From contig CAVZNJ010000019.1 of NCBI GenBank assembly GCA_963776615.1, forward strand, positions 55,295 through 119,294: DNA of 64,000 bases, read 5' to 3'. The notes beneath the pieces are model-generated. The model was not told where the DNA came from, did not search any database, and was given only the letters and a program-made list of their open reading frames with translations. This document shows positions 1-63,000 of the stretch, piece after piece (within the stretch, counting starts at the first letter, position 1; each line of letters opens with the position of its first letter). This DNA is from an uncultured Verrucomicrobiae bacterium. Lineage in GTDB: Bacteria; Verrucomicrobiota; Verrucomicrobiia; Chthoniobacterales; UBA10450. A program made the position numbers and the translations under genes.

Positions 1-678
1 ATCCTCAATCACAAAGAGAAACGGTTGCCGATCCGAGCAAGCCTTCAGCCATTGCCGCATCGCGCGAAAGGTTTCTTCCCGTTCACGCACGGGAGTTAGG
101 CCCGCCGCGGGATACCGCTCGTCCGGGGCCAGAAACAGAAGCTTTGCGAAAAGCGCGACCAGATCCGCCCGGCCCAGGCCAAAGTCATCGAGGTGCCGCG
201 CGAGCCGGTCGAATCGCGCCGAGGTCGATTCATCACGGTCAAGATTGAGAAAGCGACTAAAGAAGTCCGAAATTGGGAAGAGTCCGGAATTTCGAAAGCG
301 AAGCGAGCAACGCCACTCGACGACTGAACAATCTTGCGAAACGTCCACGGCTTCTGTCTCGGCTCTCGGTACCTTCGCGCTCCCTTGCTCCGTGACGATC
401 TGTTTGATTGTGTGCGCAAGACGCGATTTGCCCAAACCGGGTTCCCCAACGATCAACACCACCTGACCCATCCCTTCTTGAGCCTGCTCCCAGCGATCTC
501 GGAGCAAGCTGACTTCGGTGTCACGACCGGTCAGAGAAGTAAGCGTGAGCGGCGCTGCCGCGCGAATTCCATCTCGACCGGCCGCACTCTCCTGTCGTCT
601 CGCAAGCTGTTTGGGCGTATTCAAGATTCGATGAAAGATCAAAGTTCGCCGGCCATGGGTGTCGCACCGACCCAGATT
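1..678 (-). CDS. P-loop AAA ATPase domain of a large signal-transduction ATPase (partial, leaves window at left edge)
   Basis: Minus frame is open 678->1 (stop at 679-681). It reads ...LTGRDTEVSLLRDRWEQAQEGMGQVVLIVGEPGLGKSRLAHTIKQ...QPFLFVIED, with Walker A GEPGLGKS and a Walker-B-like hhhhED. The only in-frame ATG is 469-471 and no upstream effector domain was found. It is not in the ORF track because it is edge-truncated. Confidence 0.7.
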
Positions 679-900
679 CTATGGAAGCCCAGCCGGGAAA
701 CTATTGGATTTGCTTTTAGTCCGCAACAGTTCTGCGCGGGTCGGAGCAAGGCTTCGTCGTTGAACAGTTTTGTTTTGCCGGATCATGGCCGTGCGCGAAC
801 AAGTCGTTCGGCTCACTGGATGCGAGATGTTTATCCAGGAGGTGATAGTGTTTCCGAGTGCGCGCGTCGAGGCCAAGTTTGGAACCACGCGGAAAGTCCA

Positions 901-1313
901 ATGATCAAGTCTGAAACCAACTGGTGGACCAGAAATTGGAAATGGTTCGTGCCGGCTGGTTGCCCACGATGGGATTTTTCCCGGCTGCCTCGTCGGCTTG
1001 ATCGCCGTGATTGCCTTCAGTGTGATGAAGACGAGCGACGTTTACCGGCAAGCGTTGACGGGCGAAAGCTTTGGACACGGTCGTTGAAGCGCTTGATTCA
1101 CCCATCAAGGATGGCCTGTTCGTCTCGGGCAGCCCAAACGTGAACGGCGCTCCGGGCGAGGCGAACCTGGCTATACCGGGCTCTGGCCCGAAAGGCAAAG
1201 GAACCTTCTATGTAGCGGCGACCAAATCGATCGGGATCTGGAATTAGTCCAGCATCGTCTTGGAAGTGAAACAGACAAAGAGGTGCATCGACATCCTTCA
1301 CGTGAGCAAGTAG
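901..1313 (+). pseudogene. Coa1-family (cytochrome oxidase assembly factor-like) membrane protein, disrupted by 2 frameshifts and an in-frame TAG
   Basis: ATG 901 gives MIKSETNWWTRNWKWFVPAGC. The family continues in other frames: ...GIFPGCLVGLIAVIAFSVMKTSDVYRQALTG / AKALDTVVEALDSPIKDGLFVSGSPNVNGAPGEANLAIPGSGPKGKGTFYVAATKSIGIWN-TAG(1245-1247)-SSIVLEVKQTKRCIDIL. Confidence 0.6.
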
Positions 1314-1334
1314 ACTGGGCGTTTCAAGCGCATT

Positions 1335-59247: not shown

Positions 59248-59281
59248 CGGCCGATGATCGCATGGCGTCGCTGTCCGCGCG

Positions 59282-59932
59282 CTACTTTTTGCGAGTGTAG
59301 TCGATCTGCATCGTCTTCGTTTCGCCCTGGCCGCGATCTTCGTCGTACTCCATGGAGTGGTGGTTCTTGTCGCCCACCTTGATCACCTGGCGGACCTTGC
59401 TCGTCATTCCCGGCATCATCTCGGCGGTCCCGGTGTAGGTCAGGCTTTGCGTCGCCGGATCGTAGCTCCCTTCCATCGTCATGACTCCGGTGCCCATGTT
59501 GTCGATCCAGGTCGAAACGAATTTCTGTTTCACGTTGTCGTAGGCGTCGATCGACATTCCTTTGAATTCCGTTTTCTTCATCTTGCCATCCGCCCCGGGC
59601 ATCTCCATTTGGCCGGTGACATCGCCAATGACATAGCGGCCAGCCATGATCGATTTATAGACCGTCGCGCCGCTCGACTCGCTCGGCGGAGCGTCGGGCG
59701 CCATCCAGAATTTCACCTTGTATTTCCAGGTGCCGACCATGTCGGCCAGAATCTTGTGATTATCCCCCGGTTTGGCCAATCCCATCATTTTGGCCATCAT
59801 CTCCTTTTCGTCCGGTTGGCTGGCCGCGGGCGAAGCAGCAGTGTTGGTCGTCTTCGGTTCCTCGGCGAAGATTGAAGCCGCAAGCAGAGTCGCTGCAAAA
59901 GCGACTGTGAGTGGTGCAAGTTTCGTGTTCAT
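59282..59932 (-). CDS. DUF1579-family secreted protein
   Basis: Signal peptide, ...LADMVGTWKYKVKFWMAP...GRYVIGDVTGQM...WIDNMGTGVMTMEGSYD... Confidence 0.7.
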   Translation of the reverse strand: MNTKLAPLTVAFAATLLAASIFAEEPKTTNTAASPAASQPDEKEMMAKMMGLAKPGDNHKILADMVGTWKYKVKFWMAPDAPPSESSGATVYKSIMAGRYVIGDVTGQMEMPGADGKMKKTEFKGMSIDAYDNVKQKFVSTWIDNMGTGVMTMEGSYDPATQSLTYTGTAEMMPGMTSKVRQVIKVGDKNHHSMEYDEDRGQGETKTMQIDYTRKK

Positions 59933-60033
59933 TCGGCGATTCTTCTCGGCAAGCCGCGGTCGGTCAAGCCCAACCAGTGCGGACTTGTCGGGGAGGGACT
60001 TGGCCTACCTCTCGCACAGTGACCGCACAATAA

Positions 60034-63000
60034 TTGCACAGCGAAACGCAACGGGTGTTTAGCTTCGAAAAGAGGCAGCCATTACTTTTCCGGCGAATGC
60101 AACCGTCGAATAAGAAGATCACAAAGCGCAAAGCCACGTCCGAGACGAAAAACGCGGTCGGCAGTTTGGCGGACGGACGCGACGTGGCGAAGAGTTCCAA
60201 CCCTGACTTTCGGCACGAGGCGCGACGAGTTGCGAGAAATGGCCGCCTCAAGCCCCACTGCAAGACGGTCGATGCCAACGAAGCCGTCGCGCGGATTGCC
60301 TACGCGCTGAACGAAGTCATCGCCATTTATCCGATCACACCGGCGTCGCCGATGGGCGAATGGGCCGATGCCTGGGCGGCCGGCGGGATGAAAAACCTGT
60401 GGGGTACGGTGCCGGCCGTCCTCGAAATGCAGAGCGAAGGCGGTGCCGCCGGGGCGATCCATGGCGCGCTCCAAACCGGCGCGCTCAGCACAACGTTCAC
60501 CGCCTCACAGGGTCTGCTCTTGATGATCCCAAATATGTACAAGATTGCTGGTGAACTGACCCCGGCCGTCTTTCACATCGCGGCGCGCTCGCTGGCCACA
60601 CAGGCACTTTCCATTTTTGGCGATCACAGCGATGTCATGGCGGCACGGGCCAGCGGTTGGGCCATGCTCTGCTCGGCGTCGGTGCAGGAAGCGCAGGATC
60701 TCGCCCTCATTGCGCACGCGGCTACGCTCGAGGCGCGGATTCCGTTTCTCCATTTCTTCGATGGCTTCCGCACCTCACACGAAATCTCGAAGATCGAAGT
60801 GCTGCCGATCGAGGTCATGCGCGCGATGATTAACGAAGCGCGTGTACTTCAGCATCGCGCGCGTGCCCTCTCGCCCGATCATCCGGTAGTCCGCGGCACG
60901 GCGCAGAATCCGGATGTTTATTTTCAAGCGCGCGAAACGGTGAATCCATTCTACACCGCCTGTTCTGACATCGTACAAAGGGCGATGGATGATTTCGCGG
61001 AGCTGACCGGCCGGCGTTACGAGCCGTTCGAATATCACGGCGCGCCTGACGCCGAACGCGTCATTGTGCTGATGGGTTCCGGCTGCGAAGCGGCGCACGA
61101 GACGGTCGATTTTCTCCGAGCGCAGAAAGAAAAAGTCGGCCTGCTCAAGGTGCGGCTCTATCGGCCATTCCATGCGCAACATTTTGTGGAGGCGCTCCCG
61201 CCAACGACGCGGGCGATCGCCGTGCTCGATCGCACCAAGGAACCCGGCTCCGGCGGCGAGCCGCTCTATCTCGATTGCGTGACTGCGCTCTACGAGCAGG
61301 GCCGCGACAAGGTGCGCGTGGTCGGCGGTCGCTATGGATTGTCTTCAAAAGAGTTCACCCCGGCGATGGTCAAAGCCGTCTTCGAAAACCTTTCCCAGCT
61401 GGCCCCGAAAAATCATTTCACGATCGGGATCGACGACGATCTCTCGCACACCAGCCTCGAGTTCGATCCGAACTTCTCGATCGAACCTGCCGACGTAGTG
61501 CGGGCGCAGTTCTTCGGGCTGGGCTCGGATGGGACGGTGGGCGCGAACAAGGAGTCGATCAAGATCATCGGCGAGAACACCGACAACTTCGCCCAGGGCT
61601 ATTTCGTATACGACTCGAAGAAAGCAGGCGCCACGACCATTTCGCATCTGCGTTTTGGGCCGCGCCCGATTCGATCGGCCTATCTCGTGACGAGCGCGAA
61701 CTTTATCGGTTGCCACCAGCCATTCCTGCTCGAGACCTACGATGTGCTCCAGGACCTCGCTCCCCGCGGGACCGTCCTGTTGAATTCGGCGTGGGGACCG
61801 GACCGGGTTTGGCAGCACCTGCCTGAAAATGCGCAACGCCGAATGATCGAGGAAAATGCGCGATTCTTCGTGATCGACGCGAACAAGGTGGCGCGCGATT
61901 CCGGGATGGGCGGCCGCATCAATACCGTGATGCAGACCTGCTTCTTCGCGATCTCCGGCGTTCTGCCGCCGGAGGAAGCAATCGCGGCGATCAAGAATTC
62001 GATTCGCAAAACCTATGGCAAAAAGGGCGACGAGATCGTGGAGAAGAATCTGCGCGCGGTAGATGAAACGATCGCACATCTGCACGAAGTGGAAGTGCCG
62101 CGCGAGATCCTGCCGCGGGTCTCCCAGCCAAACGGCAAGCTGAGCGCGGCGCCGGAGTTCGTGCGCAACGTGCTGGGCGAAATCATGGCGGGGCGCGGCG
62201 ATCGCGTTCCGGTGAGCGCCTTGCCTAACGACGGGACTTTCCCGACTGGCACCACGCAATGGGAAAAGCGCAATCTCGCCCTGGAAGTGCCGGTCTGGGA
62301 TCCGCAGGTCTGCATTCAATGCGGCAAATGCGTCATGGTCTGCCCGCACGCCGTTATTCGAAGCAAGGTCTACGAGGAAGTCCGGCTGGAAGGTGCGCCC
62401 GCCTCATTCAAATCGCGCGAGGCCCGACTGCCGGAATGGAAAGGTCTGCATTACACACTGCAGGTGGCGGTGGAGGATTGCACCGGTTGCGGGATCTGCG
62501 TCGACGTGTGCCCCGCCAGGAACAAATCGGAGGCGCGCTTGAAAGCGATCAACATGCAGGGGCAGACGCCGCTCCGCGAAACCGAGCGCGCCAACTGGAA
62601 TTTTTTCCTCTCCATTCCAGAGTTGGATCGGCGAAAAGTGCCGCTTGGCTACGTCCGCGAAATGCAGGTGCAACAGCCGCTCTTCGAGTTCTCGGGCGCC
62701 TGCGCGGGTTGCGGCGAGACGCCCTACATCAAGTTGCTCACCCAGCTTTTTGGCGACCGGCTGATCATCGCCAACGCCACCGGTTGCTCGTCCATTTACG
62801 GCGGCAATCTGCCAACCACACCCTACGCCAAGAACAACGACGGACGCGGCCCGGCCTGGTCGAATTCGCTTTTTGAAGACAATGCCGAGTTCGGACTCGG
62901 GTTCCGCGTTTCGATCGACAAACAGCACGAGTTTGCCGCCGAACTTCTGCAACAGCTCGCGCCCGTCGTGGGCGACAAACTCGCGAAAGAAATCCTGCAC

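What the first reader, a model, noticed from the sequence alone, without database searches (positions are those of the whole stretch)
94..62230. Hyper-abundant non-palindromic word (T/G)TCGTTAGGCGA scattered through genes and spacers: candidate uptake-signal-like genomic word
I count at least 31 exact copies of CGTTAGGC/GCCTAACG in 64 kb. Top-strand CGTTAGGC starts at 3920, 5264, 8590, 9801, 19389, 23528, 24984, 26291, 30322, 31541, 37684, 38060, 38870, 40558, 41791, 43100, 44231 and 58655. Top-strand GCCTAACG starts at 14165, 18110, 20974, 28236, 30758, 33394, 35734, 37298, 38218, 39449, 41520, 58101 and 62223. Ten more copies differ only at a terminal base (94, 8504, 16114, 20419, 24137, 25370, 36256, 49789, 56005, 59209). 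A rough independence estimate at about 60% GC predicts only 2-3 copies on both strands. The flanks are also biased: T precedes CGTTAGGC in 26/31 copies and G follows in 19/31. Longer strings recur: TTTCGCCTAACGACC at 14161 and 18106, CGTTCGTTAGGCGAG at 30318 and 38056, and CGCCTAACGTTCAA at 39448 and 58100. The copies are not pieces of a longer dispersed repeat. They sit inside unrelated conserved genes (prmC, murA, sucB, PBP, kdsD, treY, pgk, PFOR, kinase) in several frames (S-L-G, x-P-N-D/E, L-T, V-R-P) and in spacers. In-frame copies force codons TTA, CTA or AGG, which GC-rich genomes normally avoid. This argues that the DNA word, not a peptide, is what is maintained. Orientation is mixed (18:13) and unrelated to gene direction. 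Short word, about one per 1.5-2 kb, both orientations, tolerated in ORFs and frequent at gene ends: this is the pattern known for Neisseria DUS and Pasteurellaceae USS. The function here is inference.
Basis: partly seen in the sequence, partly recalled or inferred. Interest (0 to 1): 0.85.

Follow-up and report, generated by a model that had tools for sequence, protein, structure and literature searches.

The report
Hyper-abundant DNA word in soil bacteria
The 9-base DNA word TCGTTAGGC has been written about a hundred times more often than chance into the genes and spacers of a whole clade of uncultured soil Verrucomicrobia, and its 7-8-base core (C)GTTAGGC is just as abundant in an unrelated clade of soil Gemmatimonadaceae; it behaves like the DNA-uptake signals so far known only from Neisseria and Haemophilus relatives.

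Summary
CGTTAGGC/GCCTAACG occurs exactly 31 times in the window. Dinucleotide shuffles give 1.3. Synonymous-codon shuffles give 0.7 in coding sequence against 16 observed.

The window comes from a Chthoniobacterales (Verrucomicrobiota) genome assembled from a metagenome. In 47 related species the word T-CGTTAGGC-G-R-R occurs at 0.3-1.7 per kb, 620 copies against 5-9 expected. These species form one clade. Some sister lineages carry weaker related forms (TCGTTAGGN, TCGTTAGC-T). More distant relatives have none.

- Orientation is 350:343, with no strand polarity.
- Flanks are unrelated and spacing is near-random.
- All four open reading frames are used, and 9% of copies supply a stop codon.
- Conserved peptides are recoded with rare codons (TTA, CTA, AGG) only in word-bearing species.
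- Two horizontally acquired defence islands lack the word.

This excludes a Chi or KOPS signal, a mobile repeat and a peptide effect. It matches the genomic signature of DUS/USS uptake sequences.

Unexpectedly, the same core (C)GTTAGGC(G) is equally abundant in one subclade of Gemmatimonadaceae, a different phylum. It is made there by the same kind of recoding.

The function (uptake signal, or another sequence reader with a drive) remains inferred. I found no description of the word in the papers searched.

The parts
3920..3927 (+). exact word CGTTAGGC, intergenic
5264..5271 (+). exact word, intergenic
8590..8597 (+). exact word; its complement GCC-TAA-CG supplies the TAA stop of the histidine-kinase gene 8592-10079 (-)
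9801..9808 (+). exact word inside the histidine-kinase gene, antisense to it, read as R-L-T (CGC CTA ACG)
14165..14172 (-). exact word; CGT-TAG-GC supplies the TAG stop of the DUF4388/response-regulator gene 14167-16305 (-)
18110..18117 (-). exact word, intergenic, just upstream of prfA (RF-1)
19389..19396 (+). exact word in prmC, sense strand, S-L-G (TCG TTA GGC)
20974..20981 (-). exact word in the gap between the two frameshifted halves of murA; L079 and L080 have GCCGAACG here
23528..23535 (+). exact word, no confident gene; conserved in L079 and L080
24984..24991 (+). exact word in ORF 24393-25091 (-), antisense, R-L-T; absent in L079 and L080
26291..26298 (+). exact word, intergenic
28236..28243 (-). 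exact word; supplies the TAA stop of the last accA-like fragment (27897-28241 +)
30322..30329 (+). exact word 12 nt before the stop of gene 29376-30341 (+), S-L-G
30758..30765 (-). exact word in sucB, antisense, S-P-N-A (linker region); the site carries the word in 7 of 48 word-bearing species
31541..31548 (+). exact word in sucB, sense, V-R-P (GTT AGG CC); the site carries the word in 23 of 48 word-bearing species; word-free species encode the same peptide with CGN codons
33394..33401 (-). exact word in the Methyltransf_28 gene fragment (-), S-L-G
35734..35741 (-). exact word in the class A PBP gene, antisense, S-P-N-D
37298..37305 (-). exact word 88 nt downstream of the PBP stop codon
37684..37691 (+). 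exact word in the poorly resolved region 37.2-38.2 kb
38060..38067 (+). exact word in the same region
38218..38225 (-). exact word at the 3' end of the GT1 glycosyltransferase gene 38198-39448 (-); it also gives the TAA stop of a + strand ORF
39449..39456 (-). exact word at the 5' edge of the GT1 gene
40558..40565 (+). exact word in the SIS+CBS (kdsD-like) gene, sense, L-V-R-P
41520..41527 (-). exact word; supplies the TAA stop of efp (40968-41525 +)
41791..41798 (+). exact word in gene 41529-42344 (+), S-L-G
43100..43107 (+). exact word in the alpha-amylase-family (treY-like) gene (-), antisense, Q-P-N-E
44231..44238 (+). exact word in the same gene, L-P-N-E
58101..58108 (-). exact word 1 nt downstream of the aminotransferase gene 58110-59168 (-)
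58655..58662 (+). exact word in the aminotransferase gene, antisense, V-P-N-D
62223..62230 (-). exact word in the PFOR gene, antisense, L-P-N-D
94..101 (+). one-off variant AGTTAGGC
8504..8511 (+). one-off variant TGTTAGGC (one of the tolerated variant classes)
16114..16121 (-). one-off variant CGTTAGGT (read on the - strand)
20419..20426 (+). one-off variant TGTTAGGC
24137..24144 (-). one-off variant TGTTAGGC (read on the - strand)
25370..25377 (+). one-off variant CGTTAGGG; L079 and L080 have the exact word here
36256..36263 (-). one-off variant CGTTAGGG (read on the - strand)
56005..56012 (-). one-off variant TGTTAGGC (read on the - strand)
59209..59216 (-). one-off variant TGTTAGGC (read on the - strand)

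Best explanation
TCGTTAGGC (logo T-CGTTAGGC-G-R-R) is a signal at the DNA level. It is read by a sequence-specific protein and has been driven to about one copy per 0.6-2 kb across the resident genome of a clade of Chthoniobacterales. The mechanism I think most likely is the one known for Neisseria DUS and Pasteurellaceae USS. In that model, the DNA-uptake machinery of naturally competent cells binds fragments carrying the word preferentially. Homologous recombination then installs those fragments. Point mutations that create the word are therefore over-transmitted (molecular drive) wherever protein coding tolerates them: silent sites, flexible linkers, C-terminal ends, stop codons and spacers.

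Shown here: the excess, its DNA-level nature, the lack of polarity, the clade distribution with variant forms, gain and retention of sites, and absence from acquired islands.

For: - Excess. The window has 31 copies against 1.3 expected, and 16 in coding sequence against 0.7 after synonymous shuffling. The pooled set has 620 copies of the 9-mer against 4.5-8.7 expected under Markov orders 1-3, and its density is 25 times that of sister-clade loci holding the same genes.
- DNA level, not peptide. All four open frames are used, and 9% of copies provide a stop codon. At orthologous sucB sites the peptides VVVRP and GRLTK are encoded GTT-AGG and CGC-CTA-ACG only in word-bearing species.
- No polarity. 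Orientation is 350:343 with no heterogeneity among 48 co-oriented loci (chi-square 34, 48 d.f.) and no link to GC skew.
- Point-mutation origin. There are no conserved flanks, spacing is near-exponential, and inverted pairs are few.
- Reader-like degeneracy. TTGTTAGGC occurs 71 times but TCATTAGGC once. These two are strand-symmetric deamination products of the same CpG. The transversion variant TCGTTATGC occurs 58 times.
- Clade pattern. The word-bearing set is monophyletic on the sucB tree. Some sister lineages carry TCGTTAGGN or TCGTTAGC(T) at lower density, which resembles DUS dialects (PMC7371117).
- Retention and gain. 8 of 9 L080 words are intact in the window against 3.4 expected neutrally, and the window has 9 further words.
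- Absent from foreign DNA. There are 0 words in an 8.6-kb type I R-M island (L101) and 0 in a 5.2-kb type I R-M plus SMODS/S_4TM island (L114). Both islands are lineage-unique and lower in GC. DUS density drops in the same way in genomic islands (PMC7371117).
- Density. It falls in the DUS range of one site per 400-1100 bp (PMC7371117). A drive from uptake bias alone can produce such accumulation (PMC3458573, citing Maughan et al. 2010).
Against: - No uptake, competence or receptor data exist for these uncultured lineages, and I could not inspect whole genomes.
- ComEC is near-universal in bacteria (PMC6299819), so its likely presence would not discriminate.
- The inverted pairs in terminators typical of DUS, and the phased T tracts of USS, are absent.
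- The same core (C)GTTAGGC is equally abundant in a Gemmatimonadaceae subclade of another phylum. A private self-recognition tag should not be shared between phyla, unless the receptor was transferred or has an old, conserved bias.
- The polarity test is local. It covers one chromosomal neighbourhood in many species, not whole replichores.
- A 13.9-kb stretch of core housekeeping genes in the window has no exact copy.
Confidence: 0.45

Rival explanations
1. The word is read by some other sequence-specific DNA transaction unrelated to uptake. One version is a sequence-directed repair or gene-conversion system (analogous to Dcm/Vsr very-short-patch repair) that converts near-cognate sites into the word. 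Another is an abundant chromosome-organising or self-marking protein whose sites are weakly selected. Such a system could move horizontally, which would explain why two phyla share the word.
For: - The same core is present in Chthoniobacterales and Gemmatimonadaceae subclades and absent from their sister lineages. This fits a transferable reader or writer.
- Tolerance of variants is position-specific.
- The word is absent from recently acquired islands, which fits any process that acts over residence time.
- The extended word has weak dyad symmetry (TCG-TTAGG-CGA).
Against: - No one-off variant is clearly depleted, as repair substrates would be. Most sit at or above expectation.
- Nine contiguous specified bases are unusually long for known methyltransferase or very-short-patch repair specificities (general knowledge).
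- I know of no nucleoid protein whose sites are written into silent codon positions at about 1 per kb (general knowledge).
- No candidate gene was identified.
Confidence: 0.33
2. The word is a Chi-like recombination hotspot recognised by RecBCD/AddAB. It would be kept in both orientations because two-ended breaks (for example after desiccation) dominate in soil bacteria.
For: - It is a short non-palindromic word at sub-kilobase to kilobase spacing, present in core DNA and absent from foreign islands.
- An abundant self word would protect resident DNA from a processive nuclease.
Against: - There is no orientation bias at all: 350:343, with every locus near 1:1 although all sit on the same side of a monotonic GC skew. 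Known Chi sites are co-oriented with replication (general knowledge).
- The enrichment is about 100-fold and is achieved with the rarest codons. Chi words are made of common codons and are only modestly enriched (general knowledge).
Confidence: 0.07
3. The word is a polar chromosome-segregation signal of the KOPS/SRS type that guides FtsK or SpoIIIE.
For: It is a non-palindromic 8-9-mer that is over-represented.
Against: Such signals are strongly skewed towards one strand per replichore. Here the ratio is 1:1 in every locus.
Confidence: 0.01
4. The copies are remnants or cores of a dispersed mobile repeat (REP, MITE or IS end).
For: Many copies, some of them in spacers.
Against: - Information content outside positions -2 to +10 is at most about 0.1 bit over 691 copies.
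- 76% of copies lie in coding sequence of conserved genes at silent positions.
- Differences between relatives are single-base changes, not insertions.
- There are no hairpin partners.
Confidence: 0.01
5. The word is a by-product of protein or translation constraints: a common peptide, codon-pair bias, or selection for hidden out-of-frame stop codons.
For: - The word contains TAG on one strand and TAA on the other.
- 9% of copies are real stop codons, and density is 3-4 times higher in the last 50 nt of genes.
Against: - Four different reading frames and both strands are used, and copies also lie in spacers.
- The same peptides are encoded without the word in sister lineages.
- Synonymous shuffling gives 0.7 against 16 observed.
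- Hidden-stop selection cannot specify the outer CG...GGC bases.
Confidence: 0.02

Closest known systems
Neisseriaceae DNA uptake sequence (DUS, 10-12 bp, dialects sharing a CTG core; receptor is the minor pilin ComP)
   Same: - It is a short non-palindromic word at one copy per about 0.5-2 kb.
- It occurs on both strands, inside genes and in spacers.
- Related lineages carry variant forms that share a core (TCGTTAG here).
- Density drops sharply in horizontally acquired islands (PMC7371117).
   Different: - The sequence is unrelated and the host phylum is different.
- There are no inverted pairs forming terminators.
- The receptor and the uptake bias are unknown.
- The same core word also occurs in a second phylum. 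As far as I know, this has not been reported for DUS.
Pasteurellaceae uptake signal sequence (USS, 9-bp core AAGTGCGGT or ACAAGCGGT plus T-rich tracts)
   Same: - It has a 9-bp core about 100-fold over-represented, mostly inside genes and in several frames, and it influences codon and peptide choice.
- Core positions are tolerated to different degrees.
- The accumulation can be explained by molecular drive (PMC3458573).
   Different: - There are no helically phased AT tracts next to the core.
- Competence has not been demonstrated.
- The distribution spans two phyla.
Chi sites (RecBCD/AddAB)
   Same: It is a short asymmetric word enriched in resident DNA.
   Different: - There is no co-orientation with replication.
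- The enrichment is far larger than for Chi, and it relies on rare codons.
Cyanobacterial HIP1 (GCGATCGC)
   Same: It is an octamer hyper-abundant across whole genomes, located inside genes at silent positions, clade-specific, and without a proven function.
   Different: HIP1 is a palindrome and is linked to methylation. The present word is asymmetric.

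Membership tests
DNA uptake sequences (DUS/USS) | Short (9-12 bp) non-palindromic word, about 100-fold or more over-represented, roughly one per kb | tested here: met
   620 copies of TCGTTAGGC in 905 kb against 4.5-8.7 expected. Density is 0.3-1.7 per kb in every word-bearing locus.
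DNA uptake sequences (DUS/USS) | Both orientations, no replication-strand polarity | tested here: met
   350:343, with no heterogeneity among 48 loci. The test is local only; whole replichores were not available.
DNA uptake sequences (DUS/USS) | Maintained as DNA: several frames, silent-site recoding, effects on peptides | tested here: met
DNA uptake sequences (DUS/USS) | Restricted to one lineage, with variant forms (dialects) in related lineages | tested here: met
   The word-bearing clade is monophyletic. TCGTTAGGN and TCGTTAGC(T) occur in some sister groups. The same core in Gemmatimonadaceae goes beyond the known pattern.
DNA uptake sequences (DUS/USS) | Depleted in horizontally acquired islands | tested here: met
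   Two defence islands, 8.6 kb and 5.2 kb, contain 0 copies. Only two islands were examined.
DNA uptake sequences (DUS/USS) | Inverted pairs acting as terminators (DUS) or phased AT tracts flanking the core (USS) | tested here: not met
   Only 12 of 57 close pairs are inverted and none forms a hairpin arrangement. Flanks carry no information.
DNA uptake sequences (DUS/USS) | Competent cells take up word-bearing DNA preferentially | not testable with these tools
   The lineages are uncultured and the test needs an experiment.
DNA uptake sequences (DUS/USS) | Competence machinery and a sequence-specific receptor encoded in the genome | not tested
   Only about 20 kb per genome could be read. No pilus or competence gene lies in the window. 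ComEC is near-universal anyway (PMC6299819).
Chi sites | Co-orientation with the direction of replication | tested here: not met
   the GC skew is monotonic across the window.
KOPS/SRS polar motifs | Strong strand skew within a replichore | tested here: not met
REP/MITE dispersed repeats | Conserved unit of 20 nt or more, usually with a hairpin, inserted as a block | tested here: not met
HIP1-type palindromic words / restriction-modification sites | Palindromic recognition sequence | tested here: not met
   The word differs from its reverse complement. Only the outer TCG...CGA bases are symmetric.

The most novel reading that the evidence does not exclude
One sequence reader with the specificity (C)GTTAGGC is shared by unrelated, globally abundant soil bacteria (a Chthoniobacterales clade and a Gemmatimonadaceae clade) and rewrites thousands of silent sites in each genome. 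It would either have moved horizontally or be ancient and unevenly retained. That would be the first uptake-signal-like word shared across phyla, or a new, mobile kind of genome-writing drive.
Probability: 0.3. Interest if true: 0.92.

Novelty: new variant of a known kind. Interest (0 to 1): 0.85.

Why it matters
Sequence-specific uptake signals are known from only two proteobacterial families, both host-associated and culturable. A word with the same genomic signature in uncultured Chthoniobacterales and Gemmatimonadaceae, two abundant soil lineages, would have several consequences.

- It would suggest that sequence-biased natural transformation, or another strong sequence-specific drive, shapes genomes of dominant soil bacteria.
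- It gives a simple marker (density of one 8-9-mer) for telling resident from recently acquired DNA in these genomes. The same marker could help check metagenomic binning.
- The sharing between phyla is not explained by current models of how uptake sequences evolve.

Tried and rejected
- **Phage scan.** I scanned viral contigs for GTCGTTAGGCGAAA. All 78 hits were single chance hits, and no phage carried several copies.
- **False 'other words' in sister lineages.** GGCAAGAT/ACGGCAAG in L124, L127 and L128 is a protein repeat of about 147-nt period (..ADGKILVGG..). TGGAGTAA in L123 belongs to arrays of 8-nt tandem repeats. Neither is a genomic word.
- **High-order Markov expectation.** At order 5 and above the model simply absorbs the word (592-686 expected against 693 observed), so it is uninformative. 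I used low orders, sister-clade controls and codon shuffles instead.
- **Look-up of the window's own contig.** Exact look-up of its sucB protein failed, so no further DNA of the source genome could be read.
- **Taxonomy of other word-rich metagenome contigs.** Exact-protein cluster look-up gave no organism names. Only L173 and L233 were placed, in Gemmatimonadaceae.
- **Rfam and tRNA scans.** Nothing was found in the window.
- **Literature.** Searches for the word, its variants, and uptake sequences in Verrucomicrobia or Gemmatimonadota found only primers and unrelated papers.
- **Core versus accessory density.** Density is 0.89 per kb in widely shared DNA and 0.55 per kb in lineage-unique DNA. 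The trend is in the expected direction but modest. Only the two defence islands are clear-cut.

Full report
**1. Checking the observation**

An exact search finds 31 copies of CGTTAGGC, 18 on the top strand and 13 on the bottom. Dinucleotide-preserving shuffles give a mean of 1.31 and a maximum of 5. The word is tied for the most frequent 8-mer of the window, and its extensions are the most frequent 9- to 12-mers.

The flank counts (T before in 26/31, G after in 19/31), the ten terminal-base variants and the three recurring 14-15-mers are all confirmed.

I also ran a codon-aware control. It keeps every protein sequence and each gene's own codon usage, and shuffles synonymous codons. It gives 0.72 +/- 0.79 copies (maximum 3 of 300) against 16 observed in the coding sequence of 46 called genes.

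The codons forced by in-frame copies are the rarest of their families in this genome: TTA is 1% of Leu codons, CTA 2%, and AGG 4% of Arg codons.

**2. Where the window comes from**

Homologues of the window's sucB gene that carry an organism name are Chthoniobacterales/Spartobacteria, phylum Verrucomicrobiota, and come from soil metagenome assemblies. The window holds ordinary housekeeping genes:

- prfA, prmC, murA
- sucB, lpdA
- a class A penicillin-binding protein, a kdsD-like gene, efp, a treY-like gene
- argS, tpiA, pgk, gap
- pyruvate:ferredoxin oxidoreductase (PFOR) and two-component regulators

No RNA family or tRNA gene was found. No pilus or competence gene lies in the window.

**3. 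The word in relatives**

One scan of species-representative genomes with sucB returned 80 loci of about 20 kb each. Every locus whose sucB is at least 77% identical to the window's carries the word at 0.3-1.7 per kb. So does one more distant locus, L130 (68% identical, 0.33 per kb). That makes 47 loci. Most loci at 71% identity or below have few or no copies.

On a neighbour-joining tree of sucB proteins, the word-bearing set (apart from L130) forms one clade.

Pooling the 47 loci and the window gives 905 kb:

- CGTTAGGC occurs 693 times.
- TCGTTAGGC occurs 620 times, against 4.5-8.7 expected under Markov orders 1-3.
- The word-free set (510 kb, same genes, similar GC) has 14 copies of the 9-mer.

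The logo from 691 copies is T (90%)-CGTTAGGC-G (58%)-R-R. Information content is at most about 0.1 bit per position everywhere else within 30 nt. So the copies are not pieces of a longer element.

Spacing between neighbouring copies is close to exponential. Inverted pairs are rare.

**4. A DNA signal, not a peptide**

In the pooled set, 76% of copies are in coding sequence, 15% are intergenic, and 9% overlap a stop codon (TAG on the word strand, TAA on its complement). All four frames that are open are used: S-L-G, V-R-P, R-L-T and x-P-N-x.

Density in the last 50 nt of genes is 2.8 per kb, against a mean of 0.76 per kb.

A codon alignment of sucB shows five sites that carry the word, each in 7-23 of the 48 word-bearing species.

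- At one site the conserved peptide V-V-V-R-P is written GTC GTC GTT AGG CCG in word-bearing species. Word-free species use CGC, CGG or CGT for the arginine.
- At another site G-R-L-T-K is written CGC CTA ACG in word-bearing species, against mostly CTG/ATT with ACC in word-free species.
- At a third site the word comes with a Met-to-Leu change.

**5. Polarity**

All loci are oriented alike, with sucB on the + strand, and almost all have the same sign of GC skew. The word is split 350:343 between strands. There is no heterogeneity among loci (chi-square 34 with 48 degrees of freedom) and no correlation with skew.

The window itself has a monotonic cumulative GC skew and an 18:13 split.

This removes the Chi and KOPS rivals as far as one chromosomal neighbourhood in many species can. 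Whole replichores were not available.

**6. Variants, turnover and dialects**

One-off variants are unevenly enriched:

| Variant | Observed | Expected |
|---|---|---|
| TTGTTAGGC | 71 | 2-4 |
| TCGTCAGGC | 89 | 12-15 |
| TCGTTATGC | 58 | about 5 |
| TCGTTAGGG | 87 | 3-4 |
| TCATTAGGC | 1 | about 3 |
| TCGTTAGAC | 5 | about 3 |

TTG and TCA are the two strand-symmetric deamination products of the same CpG. A mutational halo would therefore enrich both equally. The asymmetry points to a reader that tolerates some substitutions and not others.

I aligned the window with its two closest relatives over 20.7 kb (89% identical).

- 8 of the 9 words of L080 and 10 of the 12 words of L079 are intact in the window. 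The neutral expectations are 3.4 and 4.2.
- The window has 7-9 further words at places where the relatives differ by one or two bases (more at one site).

So sites are both retained and gained.

Some sister lineages carry related words at lower density. These are TCGTTAGG followed by any base (L119/L120, L130) and TCGTTAGC(T) (two other groups). The remaining sister groups and Chthoniobacteraceae have nothing of the kind. This resembles the dialects of the Neisseriaceae DUS, which share a small core (PMC7371117).

**7. Foreign DNA lacks the word**

Among segments unique to one word-bearing locus, two stand out. L101 507-9076 has 0 copies in 8.6 kb at 56% GC. L114 2997-8147 has 0 copies in 5.2 kb at 56.5% GC. 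The rest of those loci has 0.55 and 1.1 copies per kb.

These segments encode a type I restriction-modification system with an AAA_13 protein, and a type I system next to a SMODS/S_4TM pair. Both are typical mobile defence islands.

Overall density is 0.89 per kb in widely shared DNA and 0.55 per kb in unique DNA. DUS density likewise collapses in genomic islands (PMC7371117).

**8. An unexpected second phylum**

I scanned metagenome contigs for CGTTCGTTAGGCGA. The scan returned mostly single chance hits, but 25 of 120 loci held further copies. One group of these has 64-69% GC. It contains CGTTAGGC 74 times in 97 kb against 5.8 expected, and the 5' T is present in only about half the copies.

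Two of these contigs were placed by protein homology. The named homologues of L173's PBP1A are all Gemmatimonadaceae or Gemmatimonadota. For the CrtO-like oxidoreductase of L233, the closest named homologues are Gemmatimonadaceae and Gemmatimonadetes.

I then fetched loci through those proteins, so they were not chosen for the word.

| Locus | Source or similarity | Length | Word count |
|---|---|---|---|
| L282 | GCA_973509775.1 | 19 kb | CGTTAGGC 22 (1.16 per kb) |
| L283 | JGI metagenome contig | 14.6 kb | CGTTAGGC 12 (0.82 per kb) |
| L281 | PBP 74% identical | 22 kb | CGTTAGGC 3, GTTAGGC 7 (weak signal) |
| L279, L280 | PBP 63-65% identical | about 22 kb each | 0 |
| L286 | PBP 71% identical | 9.9 kb | 0 |
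| L284/L285 | 65% GC, composition-matched | 21.6 and 19.5 kb | 0, and not even one GTTAGG |

The logo in this group is t-C-GTTAGGC-G and orientation is 37:46. In PBP1A the conserved A-L-G-A is written GCG TTA GGC in word-bearing species and CTC or CTG in word-free ones.

So the same phenomenon, with the same core, exists in one subclade of a second phylum.

**9. Interpretation**

A peptide effect, a codon effect, a mobile repeat and a polar signal are excluded by direct tests.

What remains is a sequence-specific reader coupled to a process that favours creation and retention of its site throughout long-resident DNA. The only known systems with this full signature are the uptake sequences of Neisseriaceae and Pasteurellaceae. 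For those, uptake bias plus recombination is sufficient to explain accumulation (PMC3458573). I therefore rank an uptake-signal function first, at about 0.45.

Several points count against it:

- No competence data exist for these lineages.
- The terminator pairs of DUS and the AT tracts of USS are missing.
- A word shared by two phyla is not expected of a private recognition tag.

That last point raises the rival of a transferable reader or writer of another kind, at about 0.33. This could be sequence-directed repair or conversion, or a self-marking or chromosome-binding protein.

ComEC is near-universal (PMC6299819), so its presence would not decide the matter.

**10. Novelty**

Searches of the paper library for the word, its variants, and uptake sequences or competence in these phyla found nothing relevant.

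I rate the finding as a new variant of a known kind. It has a DUS/USS-like genomic signature in new phyla, with an unprecedented distribution across phyla and an unproven function.

Noticed in passing
window 16425-17829, 20046-21382, 27264-28241, 33346-34690: Four genes are split into adjacent or overlapping ORFs in different frames: an AMP-binding enzyme, murA, an accA-like gene (three pieces) and a Methyltransf_28 gene. This points to indel errors of a long-read assembly, or to pseudogenes. It also means that some words called 'intergenic' lie in real genes.
   Followed up: partly
window 44239-58100: This 13.9-kb stretch has no exact copy of the word, only two one-off variants at 49779 and 56005. 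It holds core genes: argS, PTS EIIA, GT2, PMT, PAP2, a LolA-like gene, a cyclophilin, tpiA, pgk and gap. It is not an island. Stronger codon constraint in highly expressed genes is a possible reason.
   Followed up: partly
L101 507-9076; L114 2022-6741: These are lineage-unique, lower-GC defence islands in two word-bearing relatives. L101 has type I HsdR/HsdS/HsdM plus an AAA_13 protein. L114 has type I HsdM/HsdS plus a SMODS nucleotidyltransferase and an S_4TM effector (CBASS-like).
   Followed up: yes
L123 about 1760-1910, 4250-4760, 5790-5880: Arrays of an 8-nt tandem unit (TGGAGTAA / TGGAGTGT / TGGAGCAA) occur at several places in a word-free Chthoniobacterales locus.
   Followed up: no
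L124 14.5-19.1 kb; L127 14.2-15.9 kb; L128 14.4-16.4 kb: A large gene has a protein repeat of about 147-nt period ('..QADGKILVGG..'). It makes GGCAAGAT and ACGGCAAG look like abundant words, which was a false lead for a sister-clade word.
   Followed up: yes
L173 12483/12504 and 14123/14144; L281 7055/7076 and 8695/8716; L283 1238/1259: In Gemmatimonadaceae loci, paired direct repeats TTTTAGGACA lie 21 nt apart in spacers near response-regulator and AraC-type (HTH_18) genes. They are conserved across three species and look like operators.
   Followed up: no
L096 3575; L099 7053; L100 3350; L112 7007: Two copies of the word overlap by one base (GCCTAACGCCTAACG) at what appears to be the same orthologous site in four species.
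   Followed up: no
L159-L278 (metagenome contigs), e.g. L175, L185, L199, L211, L257, L204, L249: Further metagenome contigs carry several copies of the word. Their GC is either 55-60% or 64-69%. Their taxonomy could not be established, so other lineages beyond the two identified may carry the word.
   Followed up: partly
window 37210-38225: This region downstream of the PBP gene has four words in 1 kb. At least two reading frames there appear to be closed by the word's own TAG or TAA (37687 and 38221). The gene structure is unresolved, possibly because of frameshifts.
   Followed up: no
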